The position numbers and the translations under genes were made by a program. A stretch of 64,000 nt of DNA from an uncultured bacterium (lineage in GTDB: Bacteria > Patescibacteriota > Minisyncoccia > UBA6257 > 2-01-FULL-56-20): positions 630,028-694,027 of the forward strand of contig OY970175.1 of assembly GCA_963707865.1 (NCBI GenBank), written 5' to 3'. The number at the start of each line of letters is the position of its first letter. Position 1 is the stretch's first letter. The notes under the pieces are model-generated. The model had not been told where the DNA came from. It saw only the letters and a program-made list of their open reading frames with translations, and made no database searches. Shown here piece after piece: positions 1 to 22,941 of this stretch.

Positions 1-93
1 TTCGCGAGATCGGGAAGATGCTCGGCGGTTGGATGAAATTCGTACGAAACGGCCCTTACGCGAAAGCGGAATAATTTGAAAGAGCATACAGTA

Positions 94-212
94 ACAACGA
101 TCGCGGGACGCGCACCCAGCTTGTCATTCGAATTCCCGGACTCATTCCAGTTCACATTGACCTGCCGATTCCTCGGATTCCAGTTCGCGTGAACCACGCC
201 TTGCGGCACGCG
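94..212 (-). repeat. DGR template-repeat (TR)-like orphan copy of the 3' segment of the two downstream paralogs. In the coding frame it is Asn/AAY-rich (…VHANWNPRNRQVNVNWNESGNSNDKLGARPA…) and it has no gene body.
   Basis: 119-nt homology to 580..699 and 1724..1842. Column-by-column comparison with VR2 (16 mismatches) shows every mismatch at a TR coding-strand adenine; the same pattern holds against VR1. The segment ends in a GC-rich IMH-like stretch, GCTGGGTGCGCGTCCCGCG. Confidence 0.65.
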
Positions 213-570
213 CCCCGTGTTCCTTGATCTCGTCGTATCACACAGAGCCGCCCACGGGCAACCCCTGGCCGCTATTCTCACAAGGAACGTCGTTGTCGTT
301 AGGTTCGACCCGGCACGTTTAGCTTTTGAGGGCTAAGCCGTATGTACATTAGCCGGGAACGAGGCGAACCAACCCGACCCCCTGCGCTCATGCGCAGAAA
401 GCACGGTGGCTTCGGGAGCCCCGCCCTTTGGGTGCTAGAAAATTGGATAGCGCCAAAAGGGCGAAGTTGCCGATTTATTCTAAATTATTTTTTCATAGCT
501 TTGTTGTGTTAGAAAAATCGCGCGGAATTCAAAGAAAAAATAATATAAAGAAAAGATTGAATATCAAACT

Positions 571-1656
571 TCAATTTCGACAACGACCGCGGGACGCGCA
601 CCCAGCCTGCCACGCGAACCCCCGGACCCACCCCAGCGCACACTGACCCGCCGATCGCCCCGGATCCCAGACCGCGTGAACCACGCCCTGCGGCACGCGG
701 GAATCGAGGAGCCAAGTCCACTTGGATTTTTTGGCATCGTCGTCATAGGCATCGAAGCTATGGTCCTTTCTCGCTTCAAGCTCTTTCCGTTGCAACATCA
801 AATATTCTTCGAGTGTAAGACCGTTCCATTTTTTCTGCGCGAAAAGCTTGTCCAAATCTTCCGGCTTTTTCCCCATCGTCTCTTCGGGCAGTGGCCCCGA
901 CTGGTACAGCAGGAGATATGCTTTCCTTGTGGGCCGATTTCGGGACGTCGCGTTTTTCGTCACGTCGGGTTCGTACATGTAGTGCGCTTGGCTGTATTGC
1001 TCGGTATCTTGCAGACCCGGAAGCTGTTTATCGGCGAGTTCGGTAAGCAGCTTATTAACGCCGCCTTTCTGAAGGTCGGTTGAGGGCAAAAGCATCGCAC
1101 TATCGAACCCTTCGCGGAGGGCTTCGCGGAGCCGCGCTTCGGATTGCGGGGACAGTCGTACTTCTTTCGGCAATTCTCTCAAGAAATCTTTGAGGTCGTG
1201 GTTGGTATAAAATCCGACCGATTCTTTAAGTACGGCTTCGGTATCCAGTTTTATTTCCCGCTTCCCGTCTTTTGTTTTTTCCACATAAACCCGCCGCGAG
1301 CGTTCATAGCTCCTTTCAAACTCGCGCTGCGAGATGGTAATCCCTTCGCCATCTCCGGTTTCGAGAACGACGTTCCCATCCCTTGTTCTCCCCTTGAACA
1401 CCCACGGCTGCTTCGTCCGGTCGCCGCTCTTTATAAATTGGCTGTCCGGAGTAGCGTCACCCACCGCTTCTGGAAGGTATACGACCTCCTTGCCGTCGGC
1501 ATCAAAAATCCTTGCTTCCACGGGCTTCGGTACTTCGCGAAGCATTTCGGCCCGCCTCGGCACACGCGGACTCAATGCCCCGATCTCGGATGGGGTGAGA
1601 ATAGGGCTTTCGTTTTGCTCAGCCTGCCCCTCGAAGTTTTCTGGTGATTTTTTCAT
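571..1656 (-). CDS. Putative DGR target protein, paralog 1 (hypothetical). VR1 at the C-terminus carries a 1-nt insertion that shifts the terminal frame, so this may be a pseudogene or an error.
   Basis: 361-aa ORF, about 65-70% identical to the neighbouring paralog. The C-terminal 120 nt form the variable repeat. The C-terminal tail reads …GCASRGRCRN* instead of …GARPAVVVEIEV*. Confidence 0.6.
   Translation of the reverse strand: MKKSPENFEGQAEQNESPILTPSEIGALSPRVPRRAEMLREVPKPVEARIFDADGKEVVYLPEAVGDATPDSQFIKSGDRTKQPWVFKGRTRDGNVVLETGDGEGITISQREFERSYERSRRVYVEKTKDGKREIKLDTEAVLKESVGFYTNHDLKDFLRELPKEVRLSPQSEARLREALREGFDSAMLLPSTDLQKGGVNKLLTELADKQLPGLQDTEQYSQAHYMYEPDVTKNATSRNRPTRKAYLLLYQSGPLPEETMGKKPEDLDKLFAQKKWNGLTLEEYLMLQRKELEARKDHSFDAYDDDAKKSKWTWLLDSRVPQGVVHAVWDPGRSAGQCALGWVRGFAWQAGCASRGRCRN
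580..699 (-). repeat. DGR variable repeat VR1 (3' end of paralog 1).
   Basis: It differs from the TR (94..212) almost only at TR adenines, plus a 1-nt insertion (cgatCGcccc vs cgattcccc). Confidence 0.6.
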
Positions 1657-1707
1657 GATCTATAAAAATTTTCGCGGAAGAAAAAATAATGAATTAAATA
1701 CAAAAGA

Positions 1708-2793
1708 TCAAACTTCAATTTCGACAACGACCGCGGGACGCGCACCCAGCTCGCCAAGCGAATCCCCGGACTCATCCCAGTGCACATGGACCCGCCGATT
1801 CCCCGGACGCCAGTACGCGCGAACCACGCCTCGCGGCACGCGGGAATCGAGGAGCCAAGTCCACTTGGATTTTTTGGCATCGTCGGAATAGGCATCGAAG
1901 CGATGATCTTTGCTTGCCTCTGCTTCTTTTCTTTGCGTCAATAGGTATTCTTGGAGCGTGAACCCATTCCATTTCTTTTGCGCAAATAATGGATCGAGTT
2001 GATCCGGCGACTTTCCTTTTGTCTCGTCAGGAATTGGGCCGGACTGATAGAGTAGGAGGTAAGCTTTTTGCTTTGGCCTGTTCCTCGTTTCCGCAGTTTT
2101 GGTGCCGCCCTCAAAGTACGGTGCCGTGTATTGCTCGTTCGCCGATAGGTTTGGGATCTCCTTGATAGCGGTTTCAGAGGCGATGGTTTCGATATTCGCG
2201 GATTGCACCTCAGTTTTTGGAAGAAGCATCGCTTTGTCGAATCCCTCGCGAAGGGCTTCGCGCAATCTCGCTTCCGATTGCGAAGACAGCCGGATTTCTC
2301 TTGGTAATTCTTTCAGAAAATCCTTAATATCGTGCGCGGCGTAAAACCCGACGGACTCTTTGAGTACTGCTTCCGTATCAAGACTCACTTCCTTGCCCTC
2401 TTTTGTCCGTTCCGAATAGATCCTCTGGCTTCGCTCATAACTTGCTTCGAGTTCCCGTAACGCGATTGTGATGCCCTCGCCGTCCTCGGTCTCGAGGACC
2501 ACTTTCCCGTCTTTGGTCCTGCCTTTTACAACAAATGGTCTCTTGGCGCGATCTCCCTTCTTGATAACCCGACTGTCCGGGGAAAAGGCCCCTGAGGACT
2601 CGGGGAGATATGCGATCTCATTACCGTCCTCATCGAGAATTTTTGCCTCGATTGGCCTCGGCGCTTCGCGAAGCATTTCCGATCTGCGTGGTACGCGCGG
2701 ACTTAAGGCCCCGATCTCGGAAGGGGTAAGAATGGCATTCTCACTTTCCATAACATCTGACGGCCGTTCCGGATTTTCGGGCGATCTTTTCAT
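1708..2793 (-). CDS. Putative DGR target protein, paralog 2 (hypothetical; intact VR2 at the C-terminus, which ends …LGARPAVVVEIEV).
   Basis: 361-aa ORF. The N- and C-terminal regions are conserved with paralog 1, with a divergent central segment. The C-terminal 119 nt are collinear with the TR. Confidence 0.65.
   Translation of the reverse strand: MKRSPENPERPSDVMESENAILTPSEIGALSPRVPRRSEMLREAPRPIEAKILDEDGNEIAYLPESSGAFSPDSRVIKKGDRAKRPFVVKGRTKDGKVVLETEDGEGITIALRELEASYERSQRIYSERTKEGKEVSLDTEAVLKESVGFYAAHDIKDFLKELPREIRLSSQSEARLREALREGFDKAMLLPKTEVQSANIETIASETAIKEIPNLSANEQYTAPYFEGGTKTAETRNRPKQKAYLLLYQSGPIPDETKGKSPDQLDPLFAQKKWNGFTLQEYLLTQRKEAEASKDHRFDAYSDDAKKSKWTWLLDSRVPRGVVRAYWRPGNRRVHVHWDESGDSLGELGARPAVVVEIEV
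1724..1842 (-). repeat. DGR variable repeat VR2 (3' end of paralog 2).
   Basis: 16 mismatches to the TR over 119 nt, all at TR coding-strand adenines and none elsewhere. Confidence 0.65.
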
Positions 2794-2800
2794 GGTGTTA

Positions 2801-4468
2801 TCACAATTGAAATTCTTCTTGAAACTTTTTTACAAGATTGCGATCCTCTTCAGGATAGATTTTTTGGGATCCCCACGCGGTGATTTTCTCCGCGAGGAAG
2901 TTTTTGAGAGTCTCGTTGGACCTCATGGCTGATTTTCGGTATTCCTGAAGCCAAGAAATGATGAGACCCGGATCAAGCACGGCATGACGAAGATAAGAAG
3001 CATCACGCAGGGTTGTAGTGAGTGCATTCTCTTCGCCTTTGTAGCTTTTCTGGATAGCCGCGACGAATTCGGCAAACCGCCAGAGCGTTCCTCCCGCTTT
3101 GGGATCGGTGTCAATCTCGGGATGCTTGCTATTGGTTCGCGCATCCACTACTTCTTTCCATTGCGGAGGCAACTCGTCCTTCGGTACGCGAATTCGATCG
3201 TTCTGGTCCATAAGCGCCGCGAGCATCATTTCATAAAGCTCGGGATCTTCCGGGGATTGCGGCGGATAATCTACCTCAAGCGAGCCGAGTTCCCGCGCCA
3301 CCTCGACCGGAAGCTCGGAGCGATCCGGATGTTTTTCCGAAGGAAGGTTGGCTGAGCCAATAAAACCGAATTCGGGAGCAAGTTTTTCTGAACTGCCTGC
3401 CCAAGCTGCAAAGCTGATTTCCTCTCCCGCGCGGCGGCCGGAAAGTTGCTTGATTAAAGAACGCAAGCCTTCCGGAGGGTAGCCGTTCATTTCGTCCATA
3501 TAGAATATTCCGCCAGCTCCGGCTTTCGCATCCCGCGAGGTCTTTTTCCCGGTCACCGCTTGACCGAGCGGCCCGTAGGTGACGAATGTTTCTCTGTCCT
3601 TATCTATACTTCGCAAACCTAAAAGCGGTCGGATGTCAGTTTTCGCTTCTTCGCCTACTTCATAAGGCGCACGTTCGGTAAGCCGTTGCGAAGCAGCACG
3701 AGCGAGACGAGTTTTTCCGGTTCCAGTTTCTCCATAAAGGAGGAGTGGCCGATTCTGATTCACGATCACAAGGTGCTCGAGAATTTTCTGGAATAATTTT
3801 TCTCTTGATGGAGTCCAAATAAAGCCGCCCTTCTTAAGCTGCTCCCGATATGTCTTCAAGCGTTCAAAAGAAAGCCGCGCTGAGAGTTCCGGATCTTCGC
3901 GCTCCATCCGTTGCATCGAGCCATCGGTTGCTTTCACGCGAGCCGCGAGATCGGCAAGCTCGAGCAGAGTAAGTTCATCGGATTCTTTTTCCCGATGGGA
4001 AAAAATATCTGAATAGAGTTCGAGACGACGCTCGTCCGCTCCGTCCCTCTGAGCTTTTTCCCGGAGATAATTCTCGTACGAAGGGGCAAGTTTTTCCTCT
4101 TCTGCAAATTCACGTTCCAAGGTTTTCTCAAAGATTCCACGCACGTTGGTATCTTTGAAGCGAGGGCGTATGGCGGTGCGGAGCGGAGCGAGTTTTGTGT
4201 CGACTGCAACCGTCGCTCGGATACGCCGGGCACGATCCGCTGGTGATTCCTGATCGTTCTTGGGCTCGGCTCTTTTATCTCGATATTCTTTGGCAAGCTC
4301 GTCTCTCTTGCGCTGATAGTCGCGCCAAAGCGCATAGAGCTCCTCAGATCCCTGTTCGGGAGAATTCCATGTCTCGGCAAAAGAAACGACGCCTTCTTTT
4401 TGCGGAGCCTTTTCCGAAGCTTGTTCCAGCTTATTCTCTATTTCCTCGAATTTGGGGCTCTCCTTCAT
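2801..4468 (-). CDS. AAA+ ATPase (AAA_5 / MoxR-McrB-like), with a charged coiled-coil N-terminal region.
   Basis: Walker A motif [12 protein letters not shown] and Walker B-like motif [10 protein letters not shown]. 555 aa, immediately upstream of and co-oriented with the two DGR-target paralogs. Confidence 0.6.
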
Positions 4469-4645
4469 GTTGATTTGATGGCTAGATTATACATCGGAAT
4501 GACCTGCAAGTCAACAGGCGCTCCTTTGTTTTTGCTTATATTAATACTTCAAGTTTACATCATTACCAAGTCGAAAGAAATATCCTTAAATCTGGGGCGT
4601 CGGAGCACTCTGGACTTTTCCCACCGTTGCGTCATCCATTTCAAT

Positions 4646-4995: not shown

Positions 4996-6339
4996 TTGAT
5001 GACAAACCTAACCAAGGGGTCGGCAGGAGCGGCGACCTCAACCAATCAGCCGCTGCCAGTAAAGGTCGCCTACTGTCTGTATGCAAGAAAGAGTACAGAA
5101 TCAGAGGAAAAACAAATTCTTTCGATTGATAGCCAAATCACGGAGATGATCAGGATTGCCGAGCGAGACGGATTGGAGATCGCGGAGATCAGGAAGGAAT
5201 CCCACTCCGCGAAAGATGTCGGCCAACGCGAAGTGTTTAACTCGCTCCTCACAGACATTCGCGCGGGTAAATTCAACGGCATCCTCACGTGGGCACCGGA
5301 TCGCTTGAGCCGCAATGCGGGCGATCTCGGATCGCTCGTCGATCTCATGGATCAGAAGCAGCTCGTCGAGATACGAACCTTCTCGCAAAAGTTCACTAAC
5401 AATCCAAGCGAGAAATTCATGCTCATGATCCTGTGCTCGACGGCGAAACTCGAGAACGACAATAAATCGGAAAACGTGAGACGGGGCCTGCGGGCGCGGG
5501 TGGAAATGGGCCTCTGGCCAGGCATCGCGCCTACGGGATATCTGAACGAAAAACGGAAGGATAAGAAATGCGAACTCCTGGTAGATCCCGTGCGAGGTCC
5601 CATCATCCGTCAAATGTTTGAGAAGGTGGCGAATGAGCAATGGTCGGGACGCAGGCTCTATCTATGGCTCAAAAACGAGGTAAAGTTCAAGACGATCACC
5701 GGAAAACCCCTCTCGTTATCGAATATCTTCATCGTCCTCCAAAAAACCTTCTACTACGGAACGTTTGAATTCCCCGAAAAGTCGGGCAAATGGTACACCG
5801 GCGTCCATACGCCCCTCGTCACAAAAGAACTATTTGATCGAGCGCGGGAGCAGATGAAGCGGAGCGAGGTCAAAAACGACAAGGAATTCGCCTTCACAAA
5901 GCTCATCACGTGCGGCCTTTGCGGATCAGGAATCACTGCATCTGAAAAATGGAAATATCAAAAGAACGGCAATACCCATCGGTATGTGTACTATGGATGC
6001 ACGAAGAAGCGTGACGTAAATTGCCAATGCGGATATATCAAAGAAGAAGAAATTATCGACCAGATTCTCGCGATGTTCGACACGCTCGATATCAACGAGC
6101 TGGGTGTCAAGCAGAAATTCAAGGACGAAATCGCGCGGTACAACAAATTCAGGAGAGTCGCCTTGGGCAAGGGCCGAGAACAGAACGCCGAACCGGAAAT
6201 CTTCGATGCCAAGGTCTATGCGGTCTACGTCTTAACCGAAGGCACGATTATCGAAAAACGCGAGCTGTTATCAAACCTGAGGAGCCGCTTGAAATTCCAG
6301 AACAAGACGCTCGCCTTAATGCCGCAGGAAACGGCATAA
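4996..6339 (+). CDS. Large serine recombinase (resolvase/integrase family).
   Basis: N-terminal resolvase motif YARKSTESEEKQ…SIDSQ with a catalytic Ser, a recombinase domain, and a Cys-rich zinc ribbon (CGLCGS…YYGCTKK…CQCGY). Its 3' end faces the tRNA-Val 3' end. Confidence 0.85.
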   Translation: MMTNLTKGSAGAATSTNQPLPVKVAYCLYARKSTESEEKQILSIDSQITEMIRIAERDGLEIAEIRKESHSAKDVGQREVFNSLLTDIRAGKFNGILTWAPDRLSRNAGDLGSLVDLMDQKQLVEIRTFSQKFTNNPSEKFMLMILCSTAKLENDNKSENVRRGLRARVEMGLWPGIAPTGYLNEKRKDKKCELLVDPVRGPIIRQMFEKVANEQWSGRRLYLWLKNEVKFKTITGKPLSLSNIFIVLQKTFYYGTFEFPEKSGKWYTGVHTPLVTKELFDRAREQMKRSEVKNDKEFAFTKLITCGLCGSGITASEKWKYQKNGNTHRYVYYGCTKKRDVNCQCGYIKEEEIIDQILAMFDTLDINELGVKQKFKDEIARYNKFRRVALGKGREQNAEPEIFDAKVYAVYVLTEGTIIEKRELLSNLRSRLKFQNKTLALMPQETA

Positions 6340-6392: not shown

Positions 6393-6533
6393 ATACAGCA
6401 TGATCGTGCAACGACTCAAGGGATCTGACTCGCCCGCGAACGGTAAAGAGGTTTCAGTGTACTAGAGGGTCATCCCTCAAGGACGCGCTGGAACCTCAGG
6501 AATCACGGTCTCAAAACACCTATCACTGGACTG

Positions 6534-6605
6534 TGCGTCCTGGAGGGATCGGACCTCCGGCCTCTACAGTGTCATTGTAGCGCTCTACCACTGAGCTAAG
6601 GACGC
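6534..6605 (-). tRNA. tRNA-Val (anticodon GAC).
   Basis: Manual cloverleaf: acceptor GCGTCCT/AGGACGC, D-arm GCTC-AGTGGTA-GAGC, anticodon loop ATGACAC, T-arm GGAGG-TCCGATC-CCTCC. CCA is not encoded. Confidence 0.65.
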
Positions 6606-21192: not shown

Positions 21193-22941
21193 ATGACCTC
21201 ATATTTCCTCTACGCCCGAAAATCCACCGATGTCGAAGATAAGCAGGTGCGCTCCATCGAAGACCAGCTCGCCGTCTTGCGTGCCTTGGCTAAGCAGGAG
21301 AACCTTCATATTTCCGAAGTGTTTGTGGAGAAACAATCGGCGAAGCGTCCGGGTCGTCCCGTGTTCGGCGAGATGGTTCGGCGTATCAACGAGGGAGAAG
21401 CGCAGGGCATCCTCTGTTGGAAGCTCGACAGGTTAGCCCGCAATCCGGTGGACGCGGCGCAGATAAGCTGGATGTTGCAGGAGGGCATCATCGAACACAT
21501 ACGGACGAACGACCGCGACTACCAGCCAAGCGACAACACGCTCCTTATGAATATGGAGTTCGGGATGGCGAACCAATATATTCTCGACTTGAGCGCGAAT
21601 ACGAAACGCGGCCTCCATGAGAAAGCGAAGCGGGGAGAGTATCCGAGCGTTGCCCCATTGGGCTATCAGAATGACTCGCGCACAAAGCAGATTGTCGTGG
21701 ATAGAAAAGAGTCGGTTATCGTCCGCGAAGCCTTTGAGCTGTATTCCCGCAATCAGTCCCGCCTTGAGGACATTTCAAAGTTCCTTTTCGATAAGGGCAT
21801 CCGCACCAAAGCTAACAACCGATGGATGAGCGAAGGCGGCAGGACGTGGAAACGCGACCAGATTACGGCGTTCCTATCGAACCCCTTTTATTGCGGCTTG
21901 TTCCGCTACGCCGGAGAGATTTTTGAAGGCAAATATACACCTATCATTTCCAAGCAACTGTTCGATAAAGTCCAAGCCGTCTTGAAGGAGCGGAGCAAGC
22001 CGCAGGTGAGAACCAAAGAACCGAAACCATTGTGCGGTTTGTTCCGTTGCGGCGAGTGCGGCCGGATGATTACGGCCGAAGTGCAGAAAGACCACACCTA
22101 TTATCGTTGCAGTAAGAAAGGGGTCGTCTGTTCCCAGCCCTATATCAGAGAGGAAGTTTTAGCAGTTCAACTATCCGATATACTAAAAGATTTCGCCGCG
22201 CCTTCGGATTGGGCGGTAGAACTTTCAAGAATGGCTGATGCCGACGAAGCGAACGCCATGCAATCCTCAATCGCGGCGAGCCAAGCCGTCAGAGAGGAGA
22301 TGCGGGTCATATCCCAAAAACTCCAGCGACTCCATCGGCTCTATTTGGACGAAGATATAGAGCGCGAGACCTATCTCGCGGAGAAGGAAGACCTCCTCTC
22401 CCGCCGGAAGTCGCTGGAAGGGAAACTCACCGGACTGGGCAATGGGTATCTGGCTTGGCTCGAACAGATGCGAGAGTGGATAAAAGACACATCATTACTT
22501 GGTGAAACTAGCGTTTCATCTTCCTTACCCCTCCAAAAATCGTCCGCCCAAAAAATCTTCGGCTCGAACATACTTCTCAAAAATCGTCGTATCGAATTTA
22601 CCCCCACCACACCATACGCTTCGCTCCGCGAAGCGCGGCTGAATTTTTATAATAAGGATTTAGTCTCTACTCTTGTGCCCGGGGTCGGAGTCGAACCGAC
22701 ACGTCCTTGCGGACAGCTGAGTTTAAGTCAGCTCTGTCTACCGGTTTCAGCACCCGGGCAAATCGGGTTGGAGGCCACGGCGGGAATCGCACCCGCGTAT
22801 AGCGGTTTTGCAGACCGCTGCGTTAGCTACTTCGCCACGTGGCCGTGCCTCAATCTTACTTTTTTAAGAGCGCTTTTTCAACCGCCGCAGCGTTCTCCAC
22901 GCCATGATCAAGGGATATCGATATCCGCGGCATCGGTTTGA
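21193..22941 (+). CDS. Large serine recombinase. The ORF reads through IR-B' and two tRNA genes without a stop, so the true C-terminus is uncertain.
   Basis: YARKSTDVEDKQ…SIEDQ resolvase domain, recombinase domain, Zn ribbon (CGLFRCGECGRM…YYRCSKKGVVC) and a coiled coil. The ORF starts at 21157 and ends at 22941. Confidence 0.8.
   Translation: MTSYFLYARKSTDVEDKQVRSIEDQLAVLRALAKQENLHISEVFVEKQSAKRPGRPVFGEMVRRINEGEAQGILCWKLDRLARNPVDAAQISWMLQEGIIEHIRTNDRDYQPSDNTLLMNMEFGMANQYILDLSANTKRGLHEKAKRGEYPSVAPLGYQNDSRTKQIVVDRKESVIVREAFELYSRNQSRLEDISKFLFDKGIRTKANNRWMSEGGRTWKRDQITAFLSNPFYCGLFRYAGEIFEGKYTPIISKQLFDKVQAVLKERSKPQVRTKEPKPLCGLFRCGECGRMITAEVQKDHTYYRCSKKGVVCSQPYIREEVLAVQLSDILKDFAAPSDWAVELSRMADADEANAMQSSIAASQAVREEMRVISQKLQRLHRLYLDEDIERETYLAEKEDLLSRRKSLEGKLTGLGNGYLAWLEQMREWIKDTSLLGETSVSSSLPLQKSSAQKIFGSNILLKNRRIEFTPTTPYASLREARLNFYNKDLVSTLVPGVGVEPTRPCGQLSLSQLCLPVSAPGQIGLEATAGIAPAYSGFADRCVSYFATWPCLNLTFLRALFQPPQRSPRHDQGISISAASV
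22520..22676. repeat. Right arm of IR-B. It overlaps the recombinase 3' end and terminates at the tRNA-Leu(TAA) 3' end.
   Basis: Inverted copy of 19675..19832. Confidence 0.75.
22675..22759 (-). tRNA. tRNA-Leu (anticodon TAA).
   Basis: Manual fold: acceptor GCCCGGG, anticodon loop CTTAAAC, long variable arm, T-arm GTCGG-TTCGACT-CCGAC. Confidence 0.75.
22769..22844 (-). tRNA. tRNA-Cys (anticodon GCA).
   Basis: Manual fold: acceptor GGCCACG, anticodon loop CTGCAAA, encoded CCA. Confidence 0.75.

What the first reader, a model, noticed from the sequence alone, without database searches (positions are those of the whole stretch)
571..4468. DGR targets are novel paralogs with a second, DGR-independent variable middle segment, co-oriented with an AAA_5-type ATPase
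The two targets share conserved N- and C-terminal blocks (ILTPSEIGALSPRVPRR…, KAYLLLYQSGP…FAQKKWNG…DHxFDAY.DDAKKSKWTWLLDSRVP). They have a strongly divergent internal stretch of about 45 aa that is not template-related. I do not recognise the fold of the N-terminal 300 aa.

They lie directly downstream of a 555-aa AAA+ ATPase (GETGTGKT / FYMDEMN; MoxR/McrB-like with a long acidic coiled-coil N-terminus) in an apparent operon. An ATPase co-transcribed with hypervariable ligand-binding proteins could indicate a receptor, adhesin or defence module whose specificity is diversified by the DGR. It is not a described architecture that I can name.
Basis: partly seen in the sequence, partly recalled or inferred. 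Interest (0 to 1): 0.55.

Follow-up and report, generated by a model that had tools for sequence, protein, structure and literature searches.

The report
Split ATPase–variable-protein DGR target module
In this tiny-genome (CPR) bacterium, a motor-like ATPase and two hypervariable proteins are one known type of diversity-generating-retroelement target split into separate genes. This shows they work together, probably as an intracellular recognition machine, but the basic design has already been described.

Summary
On the minus strand lie a 555-aa AAA_5 ATPase (2801-4468) and two 361-aa paralogs (1708-2793, 571-1656). Their C-terminal VRs differ from a TR (94-212) only at TR adenines (16/16 and 20/20).

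The ATPase–target link is real. In other CPR genomes the same ATPase and the whole target are one 876-940-aa protein whose C-terminus is the VR. At least 12 distinct loci share the cassette ATPase(-target) / TR / inverted Avd / RT / transglutaminase-vWA protein.

The ATPase is MoxR-class: its best structural matches are NorQ and CbbQ. All proteins lack signal peptides and TM segments.

The "second variable segment" (aa 194-242) is not hypervariable. It comes in at least three discrete types, each conserved across genomes under purifying selection.

The architecture is not undescribed. AAA/midasin-like ATPase–VR targets are reported as the commonest CPR DGR target, and MoxR/vWA-linked DGR targets are known elsewhere. 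The window shows a fission-plus-duplication variant.

The C-type-lectin fold could not be confirmed. Target 1 carries a 1-nt insertion in its VR (frameshift). A conserved, covarying RNA element lies just 5' of the TR.

The parts
2801..4468 (-). MoxR-class AAA+ ATPase, 555 aa. Helical N-terminal region aa 1-235 (nt ~3764-4468). AAA+ core aa ~236-400, with Walker A GETGTGKT and Walker B FYMDEMN. Helical/lid C-terminal region aa ~401-555.
   Evidence: ORF. Pfam AAA_5 4e-12. AF2 model pLDDT 86.6. Foldseek top hits NorQ and CbbQ, E 5e-7 to 5e-6, TMt 0.61-0.78. Profile vs PDB: midasin 2.6e-13, NorQ 2e-4. Invariant K252, N374, R383 and near-invariant D325/E326.
1708..2793 (-). DGR target 2 (intact, 361 aa). 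Disordered conserved N-terminal motif aa 21-47 (nt 2653-2733). Beta-rich domain aa 48-139 (nt 2377-2652). Conserved target module aa ~135-361.
   Evidence: AF2 pLDDT 82.7, residues 1-45 below 50. Module family of 297 clusters.
1724..1842 (-). VR2, variable repeat of target 2
   Evidence: 16/16 TR-VR mismatches at TR adenines.
2068..2214 (-). Paralog-type-defining middle segment of target 2 (aa 194-242, 'T2-type')
   Evidence: 35% identity to target 1 but 63-92% to T2-type orthologs. Purifying selection among orthologs.
564..1656 (-). DGR target 1. The ORF as assembled is 571-1656. With the extra VR base removed, the reading frame ends at 564 with ...LGARPAVVVEIEV.
580..698 (-). VR1, variable repeat of target 1, carrying a 1-nt insertion (~657) relative to the TR
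   Evidence: 20/20 substitutions at TR adenines plus one inserted base.
922..1077 (-). Middle segment of target 1 ('T1-type', with a 3-aa insertion)
   Evidence: 75-92% identity to T1-type orthologs, 35-41% to T2-type.
94..212 (-). Template repeat (TR). 26 adenines and 16 variable codons, giving ~10^14.7 possible peptide variants.
213..425 (-). Conserved non-coding element immediately 5' of the TR. Candidate structured leader of the DGR RNA.
   Evidence: Aligned across 8 loci. RNAalifold gives 29 pairs, 9 with compensatory changes. No Rfam family.
540..567 (-). Promoter-like site upstream of the TR leader
   Evidence: TTGATA-16-TATTAT, 10/12. Consensus match only.
4486..4514 (-). Promoter-like site upstream of the ATPase
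   Evidence: TTGACT-17-TATAAT, 11/12. Consensus match only.
1..74 (+). 3' end of the avd gene (last 23 codons plus stop), convergent with the TR. The RT and the transglutaminase-vWA gene are expected beyond the window edge.
   Evidence: tblastn to L001 Avd, 65% identity. L001 Avd matches Pfam bAvd and NCBIfam DivGenRetAVD.
4996..6339 (+). Large serine recombinase, divergent from the ATPase (context; possible boundary of an integrated element)
   Evidence: Pfam Resolvase + Recombinase + Zn_ribbon_recom. PHROG integrase 1e-60.
6533..6605 (-). tRNA-Val(GAC) next to the recombinase (context)

Best explanation
The three genes are the fission product of a single known type of CPR DGR target: a MoxR-class AAA+ ATPase carrying a C-terminal DGR-diversified binding module. 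Here the gene is split exactly at the linker, and the target half has been duplicated into two paralog classes.

Shown:
- Both paralogs are diversified from one TR.
- The ATPase and the target are fused in relatives.
- The five-gene cassette (ATPase, target(s), Avd, RT, transglutaminase-vWA protein) is conserved.
- All components appear cytoplasmic.

Inferred mechanism:
- The free targets dock on the ATPase hexamer through their conserved, intrinsically disordered N-terminal motif (ILTPSEIGALSPRVPRR) and the following beta domain. In fused relatives these are the tether to the ATPase.
- The hypervariable C-terminal surface (16 variable codons) captures a ligand.
- The ATPase, together with its vWA/MIDAS partner fused to a transglutaminase-like Cys-His-Asp domain, transduces or acts on that binding event by remodelling, cleaving or cross-linking.
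- The most likely role is anticipatory intracellular recognition in a conflict (anti-phage or symbiosis-related) setting, analogous to MoxR-vWA DGR-linked systems proposed in other phyla.
- The paralog-specific middle segment gives the two adaptor classes a fixed, non-DGR difference.
For: DGR targeting:
- A-only TR/VR mismatches.
- The same pattern holds in fused relatives, e.g. L004 with 24/30 at TR-A.

Fusion:
- P0071 residues 28-523 align to the ATPase at 58% identity, and residues 522-882 align to target aa 7-359 at 49%.
- 17 fused, 21 split and 12 VR-less architectures are seen among ATPase homologs.
- 8 of 10 long, remote members of the target-module family carry an N-terminal AAA_5 domain.

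Synteny:
- ATPase(-target)/TR/<-Avd/RT->/TGase-vWA occurs in L001, L004, L007, L010, L011, L014, L016, L018 and in L037, L039, L042, L058.
- L020, with an ATPase only 29% identical, still has TGase-vWA and Avd nearby.
- In L056 the TGase-vWA gene directly follows a target with no Avd or RT between them.

MoxR class:
- Pfam AAA_5.
- Midasin and NorQ by sequence profile.
- NorQ (including NorQ-NorD vWA complexes) and CbbQ by fold.

Partner protein:
- Transglut_core 5e-11 and VWA 2.5e-6, with a DKSGS MIDAS motif and Cys/His/Asp residues present.

Localisation and docking motif:
- No TM or signal-like segments in any component.
- The N-terminal motif is 89% conserved between the paralogs, is present in the consensus of fused and VR-less ATPases, and is predicted disordered.

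Operon signals.

Literature precedent: PMC10907252, PMC5758913, PMC7159879.
Against: - No experiment or complex prediction shows the free targets binding the ATPase.
- The RT and the TGase-vWA gene lie beyond the window edge, and this genome's own flank could not be retrieved.
- No PADLOC or NCBIfam defence family is matched.
- Neighbouring genes in relatives are housekeeping, not defence islands.
- The C-terminal module is not detectably a C-type lectin by Pfam, PDB profile, Foldseek or hhalign vs Mtd.
- Target 1 is frameshifted in the assembly, so only one adaptor may be functional here.
- Remote family members sit next to other ATPases (AAA_14/DUF4143 in L055).
Confidence: 0.62

Rival explanations
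1. Surface receptor/adhesin module. The variable proteins are displayed on the cell to bind host or prey surfaces, as with Mtd, TvpA or LdtA, and the ATPase assists their export or assembly.
For: DGR targets in phages and several bacteria are surface ligand-binders (background in PMC5758913). CPR bacteria are thought to be episymbionts that need attachment factors.
Against: No signal peptide or hydrophobic segment in the targets, the ATPase or the TGase-vWA protein; the maximum 19-residue Kyte-Doolittle mean is 0.5-1.3. In relatives the variable module is covalently fused to a cytoplasmic-type AAA+ ATPase.
Confidence: 0.06
2. The ATPase is a DGR accessory factor. It would help cDNA synthesis, RNA remodelling or homing, like HRDC or MSL accessory genes, and would not be a partner of the target protein.
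For: It is always in the cassette with Avd and RT. DGRs do carry accessory genes.
Against: It is fused to the target, not to RT or Avd. L056 keeps target + TGase-vWA without Avd or RT between them. VR-less ATPase forms of 704-750 aa exist. MoxR-class ATPases are protein remodellers (NorQ and CbbQ matches).
Confidence: 0.07
3. The targets are substrates, not adaptors. The conserved disordered N-terminal motif is a degron or processing site. The ATPase and transglutaminase-like thiol enzyme would unfold, cleave or cross-link the variable proteins themselves, for example releasing the variable domain from fused precursors.
For: The conserved SPRVPR-containing motif lies exactly at the ATPase-target junction of fused proteins and is disordered. 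A papain-like Cys-His-Asp domain is always encoded in the cassette.
Against: If cleavage merely separated the halves, free targets would not need to keep the motif at 89% identity. No direct evidence either way.
Confidence: 0.12
4. Cargo of an integrated mobile element. The cassette rides on an element bounded by the serine recombinase and tRNA-Val, and serves the element (exclusion or competition) rather than the cell.
For: A serine recombinase (4996-6339) and tRNA-Val (6533-6605) abut the ATPase. The Doudnabacteria locus L007 also has a serine recombinase just upstream, plus ParB-methylase and a faint terminase hit downstream.
Against: Only 2 of more than 12 distinct loci have a recombinase. 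L001 and L004 are flanked by housekeeping genes. No relative was found in 2.9 million viral contigs. Compatible with, rather than opposed to, the main mechanism.
Confidence: 0.1
5. Chance adjacency: an unrelated ATPase happens to sit upstream of the DGR targets.
For: None beyond the single-window view.
Against: Fusions, conserved order in more than 12 loci down to 29-50% identity, and a 7-nt intergenic gap.
Confidence: 0.01

Closest known systems
CPR DGR targets with an AAA/Midasin-like ATPase domain upstream of the VR (Wu et al. 2018 NAR: category g1 and 'UVR4' class; Paul et al. 2017 as cited by Doré et al. [quoted passage not shown]
   Same: Same phylum-level group. Same ATPase class: the profile hits midasin at 2.6e-13. 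Same C-terminal VR. Same cassette layout with inverted avd. Fused homologs from the Rifle groundwater dataset are 58% (ATPase) and 49% (target) identical to the window proteins.
   Different: Here the protein is split into an ATPase gene and free target genes, and the target half is duplicated into two paralog classes with a distinct middle segment. I could not verify whether the conserved transglutaminase-vWA partner gene and the TR-leader RNA element are reported in those papers (Paul 2017 is not held; no supplements).
MoxR-vWA ('VMAP ternary') conflict systems linked to DGRs in cyanobacteria, gammaproteobacteria and other multicellular bacteria (Kaur et al. 2020 eLife; Doré et al. 2024 PNAS)
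   Same: A MoxR-class AAA+ ATPase, a vWA protein and a DGR-diversified putative sensor encoded together. The sensor is cytoplasmic. Doré et al. describe clade 5A loci with a MoxR ATPase immediately upstream of a target gene with an unannotated N-terminal extension.
   Different: No VMAP protein. The vWA domain is fused to a transglutaminase-like domain rather than to the variable domain. The variable module attaches to the ATPase (fused or split) instead of to the vWA protein. The RTs belong to the separate CPR DGR clade.
NorQ-NorD, CbbQ-CbbO and RavA-ViaA MoxR-vWA protein-remodelling pairs
   Same: Best structural matches of the ATPase (9qh7/9qh4 NorQ, 6l1q CbbQ). A vWA/MIDAS partner is encoded in the same cassette.
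   Different: Those systems act on one fixed substrate (NO reductase, Rubisco). They have no variable domain, no 235-aa helical N-terminal extension and no transglutaminase domain.
Bordetella phage BPP-1 Mtd and Treponema TvpA (C-type-lectin-fold DGR variable proteins)
   Same: C-terminal VR of ~40 codons rich in AAC/AAT codons, ending in a G-A-R motif (LGARP vs Mtd FGARG). The b-a-a-b-b-b-b secondary-structure order of aa 245-358 is compatible with a CLec-type fold (inference).
   Different: No significant sequence, profile or Foldseek similarity. Cytoplasmic and ATPase-linked, not a phage fibre or lipoprotein.

Membership tests
DGR target (variable protein) | VR/TR pair whose differences fall at TR adenines | tested here: met
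   VR2 16/16 and VR1 20/20 substitutions at TR adenines (alignment).
DGR target (variable protein) | DGR reverse transcriptase and Avd encoded nearby | tested here: inconclusive
   The Avd 3' end lies at window 3-71. The RT lies beyond the window edge. Avd and RT are present in all homologous cassettes.
DGR target (variable protein) | Invariant G/C-rich block at the 3' end of VR and TR followed by divergence (IMH-like) | tested here: met
   CTGGGTGCGCGTCCCGCG is identical in TR, VR1 and VR2, and the sequences diverge a few bases later. Function not tested.
MoxR-class AAA+ ATPase (Pfam AAA_5 clade) | AAA_5 domain above the Pfam threshold with Walker A, Walker B, sensor-1 and Arg residues | tested here: met
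   AAA_5 46.8 bits vs cut-off 22. K252, N374 and R383 invariant; D325/E326 near-invariant across 50 homologs.
MoxR-class AAA+ ATPase (Pfam AAA_5 clade) | Closest structures are MoxR-family members | tested here: met
   Foldseek top 6 hits are NorQ and CbbQ (E 5e-7 to 5e-6), followed by dynein and Rea1. Profile vs PDB: midasin and NorQ.
MoxR-class AAA+ ATPase (Pfam AAA_5 clade) | vWA/MIDAS partner protein encoded alongside | tested here: met
   A Transglut_core+VWA protein is present in at least 12 homologous cassettes. In this window the expected position is off the left edge, so it was not seen directly.
C-type-lectin / FGE-sulfatase-fold variable domain | Sequence or structural similarity to CLec-fold DGR targets or FGE-sulfatase/DUF1566 families | tested here: inconclusive
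VMAP ternary conflict system (Kaur et al. 2020) | Third component: a VMAP protein with an N-terminal effector | tested here: not met
   The conserved cassette has no further gene besides ATPase, target(s), Avd, RT and TGase-vWA. Pfam found only Transglut_core and VWA in the partner.
McrBC-type restriction (McrB AAA+ GTPase) | McrB-family match and an adjacent McrC nuclease | tested here: not met
   No McrB or McrC model hit in PADLOC or NCBIfam. Only P-loop-level partial hits.
STAND/NLR-like NTPase | STAND NTPase domain (NACHT / NB-ARC / nSTAND) | tested here: not met
   nSTAND3 and nSTAND6 hits only at the P-loop, 13-14 bits vs cut-offs of ~27.
Catalogued anti-phage defence systems (PADLOC-DB 2.0) | Full-length match of any component to a defence-system model | tested here: not met
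   Targets and TGase-vWA: none. ATPase: P-loop fragments only. RT matches generic RT models.

The most novel reading that the evidence does not exclude
CPR bacteria run a cytoplasmic, DGR-programmed recognition machine. Interchangeable hypervariable adaptor proteins, in at least two fixed classes defined by the middle segment, dock by a short N-terminal motif onto one MoxR-type AAA+ hexamer. That hexamer works with a vWA-transglutaminase effector. This would be an anticipatory, antibody-like protein-targeting or immune system in ultra-small symbionts. The gene fission seen here would have turned a cis sensor into exchangeable trans adaptors. A dedicated structured RNA leader 5' of the TR would be part of the same system.
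Probability: 0.25. Interest if true: 0.8.

Novelty: new variant of a known kind. Interest (0 to 1): 0.45.

Why it matters
No function is known for the most common class of DGR targets in the Candidate Phyla Radiation.

- The fission/fusion relationship shows directly that the variable module and the MoxR-type ATPase act together.
- The invariable transglutaminase-vWA partner completes a MoxR-vWA pair.
- The split form offers separately expressible parts (motor, two adaptors, effector) for biochemical reconstitution.

If the module proves to be a diversified intracellular sensor, it would extend the proposed DGR-MoxR-vWA "antigen sensor" idea from multicellular bacteria to minimal-genome symbionts. 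As a genome-scan finding, however, it is mainly a new arrangement of an already catalogued architecture.

Tried and rejected
- Retrieving this genome's own left flank failed. The window's RT and TGase-vWA genes were therefore not seen.
- Paul et al. 2017 is not held. Its content is cited only through Doré et al. 2024. Wu et al. 2018 has no held supplements.
- PADLOC, NCBIfam and PHROGs gave no family for the targets or the TGase-vWA protein.
- A viral-contig scan for the ATPase found nothing.
- 'Second hypervariable region' was rejected on ortholog conservation and pN/pS.
- 'McrB-like' and 'STAND' were rejected on domain evidence.
- Contexts of the VR-less ATPase P0085 and the alternative-VR form P0062 were uninformative because the contigs end.
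- phmmer of the TGase-vWA protein vs PDB gave nothing significant.

Full report
**What is in the sequence**

The minus strand of window 571-4468 carries three tightly packed ORFs:
- a 555-aa protein at 4468->2801;
- a 361-aa protein ("target 2") at 2793->1708;
- a 361-aa protein ("target 1") at 1656->571.

The gaps between them are 7 nt and 51 nt. A near-consensus sigma-70-like site (TTGACT-17-TATAAT, 4514->4486) precedes the first gene. No minus-strand terminator-like site separates the three genes. An operon is plausible, but this is an inference from consensus matches only.

A 119-nt template repeat (TR) lies at 94-212 on the same strand. Variable repeats lie at 580-698 (VR1) and 1724-1842 (VR2). 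Every substitution between TR and VR falls at a TR adenine: 20 of 20 for VR1 and 16 of 16 for VR2.

The TR has 16 adenine-containing codons, nine of them AAC or AAT. This allows about 10^14.7 peptide variants.

The last 23 codons of an avd gene run off the window's left end on the plus strand (3-71). The RT must lie beyond the edge.

VR1 carries one extra base relative to the TR (about position 657). As assembled, target 1 is therefore frameshifted for its last ~28 codons. Removing the base restores the family's C-terminus ...LGARPAVVVEIEV, ending at 564. Whether this is a true pseudogene, a DGR-induced indel or a consensus artefact in a hypervariable region cannot be decided here.

**The ATPase**

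- It matches Pfam AAA_5 above threshold (4e-12). It matches no housekeeping equivalog and no defence model beyond the P-loop.
- A 50-sequence alignment shows invariant Walker A Lys, sensor-1 Asn and Arg residues, and a near-invariant Walker B DE.
- The AlphaFold model is confident (pLDDT 86.6, pTM 0.83). It has a 235-residue all-helical N-terminal region, an AAA+ core and a helical C-terminal region.
- Its best structural matches are NorQ (including NorQ-NorD vWA complexes) and CbbQ, both MoxR-family ATPases. Dynein and Rea1/midasin follow.
- The sequence profile hits midasin (2.6e-13) and NorQ (2e-4) in the PDB.

The protein is therefore a MoxR-class AAA+ ATPase. It is not McrB-like and not a STAND NTPase.

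**The targets**

No Pfam, NCBIfam, PADLOC or PHROG family matches the targets.

The AlphaFold model of target 2 (pLDDT 82.7) shows three parts:
- a disordered N-terminus (aa 1-45);
- a beta-rich domain (aa 50-139);
- an alpha/beta region (aa 140-361) that ends in the VR.

Foldseek finds nothing significant in the PDB or BFVD. The only weak hits are SH3/Tudor-like barrels to the beta domain.

A whole-database HMM search shows that aa ~135-358 is the conserved unit of a family of 297 clusters at 50% identity. None of 58 members scanned has a Pfam domain. Profile searches against the PDB and an hhalign against Bordetella phage Mtd are negative. The latter aligns only the VR end (LGARP vs FGARG).

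The order of secondary-structure elements in aa 245-358 (b-a-a-b-b-b-b) is compatible with a C-type-lectin-like fold, but that is inference. The CLec membership test is inconclusive.

**Is the ATPase-target link real?**

Yes, and this is the main result.

Homologs of the ATPase fall into four architectures:

| Architecture | Length | Count |
|---|---|---|
| ATPase alone (split; the window's clade) | ~555-590 aa | 21 |
| ATPase fused to the whole target (target aa ~7-359 align to the C-terminal half) | 790-940 aa (most 876-940) | 17 |
| ATPase + target N-terminal motif/beta domain + helical tail, no VR | 704-750 aa | 12 |
| ATPase + a different VR-like C-terminus | — | 3 |

For example, residues 28-523 of Doudnabacteria P0071 are 58% identical to the window ATPase. 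Its residues 522-882 are 49% identical to target 2.

In those fused loci the C-terminus is a genuine VR with adenine-biased differences to a nearby TR. Even among remote members of the target-module family, 8 of 10 long proteins carry an N-terminal AAA_5 domain.

Gene order is conserved in at least 12 distinct loci from genomes and metagenomes. The order is ATPase(-target), TR, avd on the opposite strand, RT, then an ~860-aa protein with Transglut_core and VWA domains.

Three further loci bear on the link:
- A locus whose ATPase is only 29% identical still has the TGase-vWA and Avd genes nearby (L020).
- One locus has the TGase-vWA gene directly after a target, with no Avd or RT between them (L056).
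- The partner protein keeps a DxSGS MIDAS motif and Cys/His/Asp residues.

None of the proteins has a hydrophobic segment.

**The "second variable segment"**

Residues 194-242 are indeed only 35% identical between the two paralogs, against 64-89% in flanking blocks. Across genomes, however, the segment falls into discrete types:
- T2-type sequences are 63-92% identical to target 2 and 33-45% to target 1.
- T1-type sequences are 75-92% identical to target 1 and 35-41% to target 2.
- A third type exists (P0009, the first target of L017).

Between orthologs the segment has pN 0.07-0.12 with near-saturated pS (0.60-0.86), like its flanks. The VR has pN/pS of 0.65-3.6.

The segment is therefore a paralog-class signature under purifying selection, not a second hypervariable region. 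The fused proteins carry T2-like versions, so the T1 type looks derived. The flanks distinguish orthologs from paralogs poorly. This may reflect constraint or gene conversion between the tandem copies; I did not test which.

**How it most likely works**

Shown:
- one TR diversifies both paralogs;
- the ATPase and the variable module are one protein in relatives;
- the MoxR-class ATPase is always encoded with a vWA protein;
- no component has a signal peptide or TM segment, pointing to the cytoplasm.

Inferred:
- The free targets dock on the ATPase hexamer. Docking would use the conserved but disordered N-terminal motif (89% identical between paralogs and present in the consensus of fused and VR-less ATPases) and the beta domain. 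In fused proteins these form the tether.
- The variable C-terminal surface binds a ligand.
- The ATPase, with its vWA/MIDAS partner and the attached transglutaminase-like thiol domain, converts binding into remodelling, cleavage or cross-linking.

This parallels what Kaur et al. 2020 and Doré et al. 2024 propose for DGR-linked MoxR-vWA systems. Doré et al. explicitly suggest it for CPR ATPase-CLec fusions.

A defence or conflict role is the best guess (roughly 35-45% on its own). It is unsupported by PADLOC or by the genomic neighbourhood.

Rival readings are detailed in their own section, with evidence and refutation tests: surface adhesin, DGR accessory factor, the target as substrate or processing precursor, and mobile-element cargo.

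**Comparison with what is known**

- Wu et al. 2018 catalogued CPR targets with P-loop NTPase motifs (category g1). They also described a "UVR4" VR class whose proteins match the Midasin AAA ATPase domain.
- Doré et al. 2024, citing Paul et al. [quoted passage not shown]

The kind of system is therefore known. What the window adds:
- a fission of that protein at the linker;
- tandem duplication of the target half into fixed classes;
- from the comparative work, the constant TGase-vWA partner and a TR-leader RNA element.

I could not check whether the TGase-vWA partner and the RNA element were already reported. The system fails the VMAP-ternary, McrBC, STAND and PADLOC membership tests.

**Other observations**

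- A ~210-nt non-coding element immediately 5' of the TR (213-425, minus strand) is conserved across loci whose proteins are only ~50% identical. It folds into a consensus structure with 29 pairs, 9 of them with compensatory changes. No Rfam family matches it. A promoter-like site lies just upstream (567->540).
- A large serine recombinase (4996-6339) and tRNA-Val (6533-6605) flank the ATPase. A Doudnabacteria relative also has a recombinase upstream. Most loci do not, and no viral contig encodes a relative.

**Verdict**

- The functional link is strongly supported.
- The "second variable segment" and "undescribed architecture" readings are not supported.
- Novelty: a new variant of a known kind.
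- Interest: 0.45.

Noticed in passing
window 213-425 (minus strand), between the target 1 stop and the TR: A conserved non-coding element directly 5' of the TR. It aligns across 8 CPR loci and folds with 29 consensus pairs, 9 showing compensatory changes. G-U pairs favour the TR-sense strand. No Rfam family matches. Candidate structured leader of the DGR RNA.
   Followed up: partly
window ~657 (within VR1, 580-698): A 1-nt insertion relative to the TR frameshifts target 1. Removing it restores the family C-terminus, ending at 564. It could be a pseudogene, a DGR-made indel or an assembly artefact in a hypervariable region.
   Followed up: partly
window 540-567 (minus strand): A promoter-like site (TTGATA-16-TATTAT) right after the target 1 stop. 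It could drive a separate TR-leader transcript.
   Followed up: no
window 4996-6339 (+) and 6533-6605 (-): A large serine recombinase lies divergent from the ATPase and next to tRNA-Val. This is a possible boundary of an integrated element carrying the DGR cassette. Locus L007/L012 (Doudnabacteria) also has a serine recombinase just upstream of its fused ATPase-target, plus ParB-methylase and a faint terminase hit downstream.
   Followed up: partly
window 21199-22173 (+), with tRNA-Leu/tRNA-Cys at 22675-22844 (-); GC dip at 16-22 kb: A second serine recombinase (31% identical to the first) sits in the same recombinase-then-tRNA arrangement. It is beside a lower-GC stretch (0.45-0.49 vs ~0.54), which may be another integrated island.
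   Followed up: no
L001 14069-16699 and equivalents in L004, L007, L010, L011, L014, L016, L018, L037, L039, L042: An ~860-aa cytoplasmic protein with Transglut_core and VWA domains (MIDAS DKSGS present) always follows the RT. In L056 it follows a target directly, with no Avd or RT between them.
   Followed up: partly
L031 (5.4 kb), L035 (3.3 kb), L010/L041: Cassette variants. L031 reads target-ATPase-target-ATPase in tandem. L035 has three tandem targets. The single target of L010/L041 lacks aa ~35-148 (the beta domain).
   Followed up: no
P0079-P0094 (704-750 aa ATPase homologs); L015, L022: A sister group of ATPases keeps the target's N-terminal motif and beta domain but ends in a helical tail with no VR module. 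Whether they are DGR-associated is unknown because the contigs end.
   Followed up: partly
P0062, P0096, P0097: ATPase fusions with a different C-terminal VR-like module (ending ...GASLSR or ...GVAFSRSL). This suggests the ATPase scaffold has accepted more than one kind of variable domain.
   Followed up: no
L004 7322-7570; L024 9025-9309: Small GIY-YIG nuclease-domain ORFs lie next to two fused ATPase-target genes.
   Followed up: no
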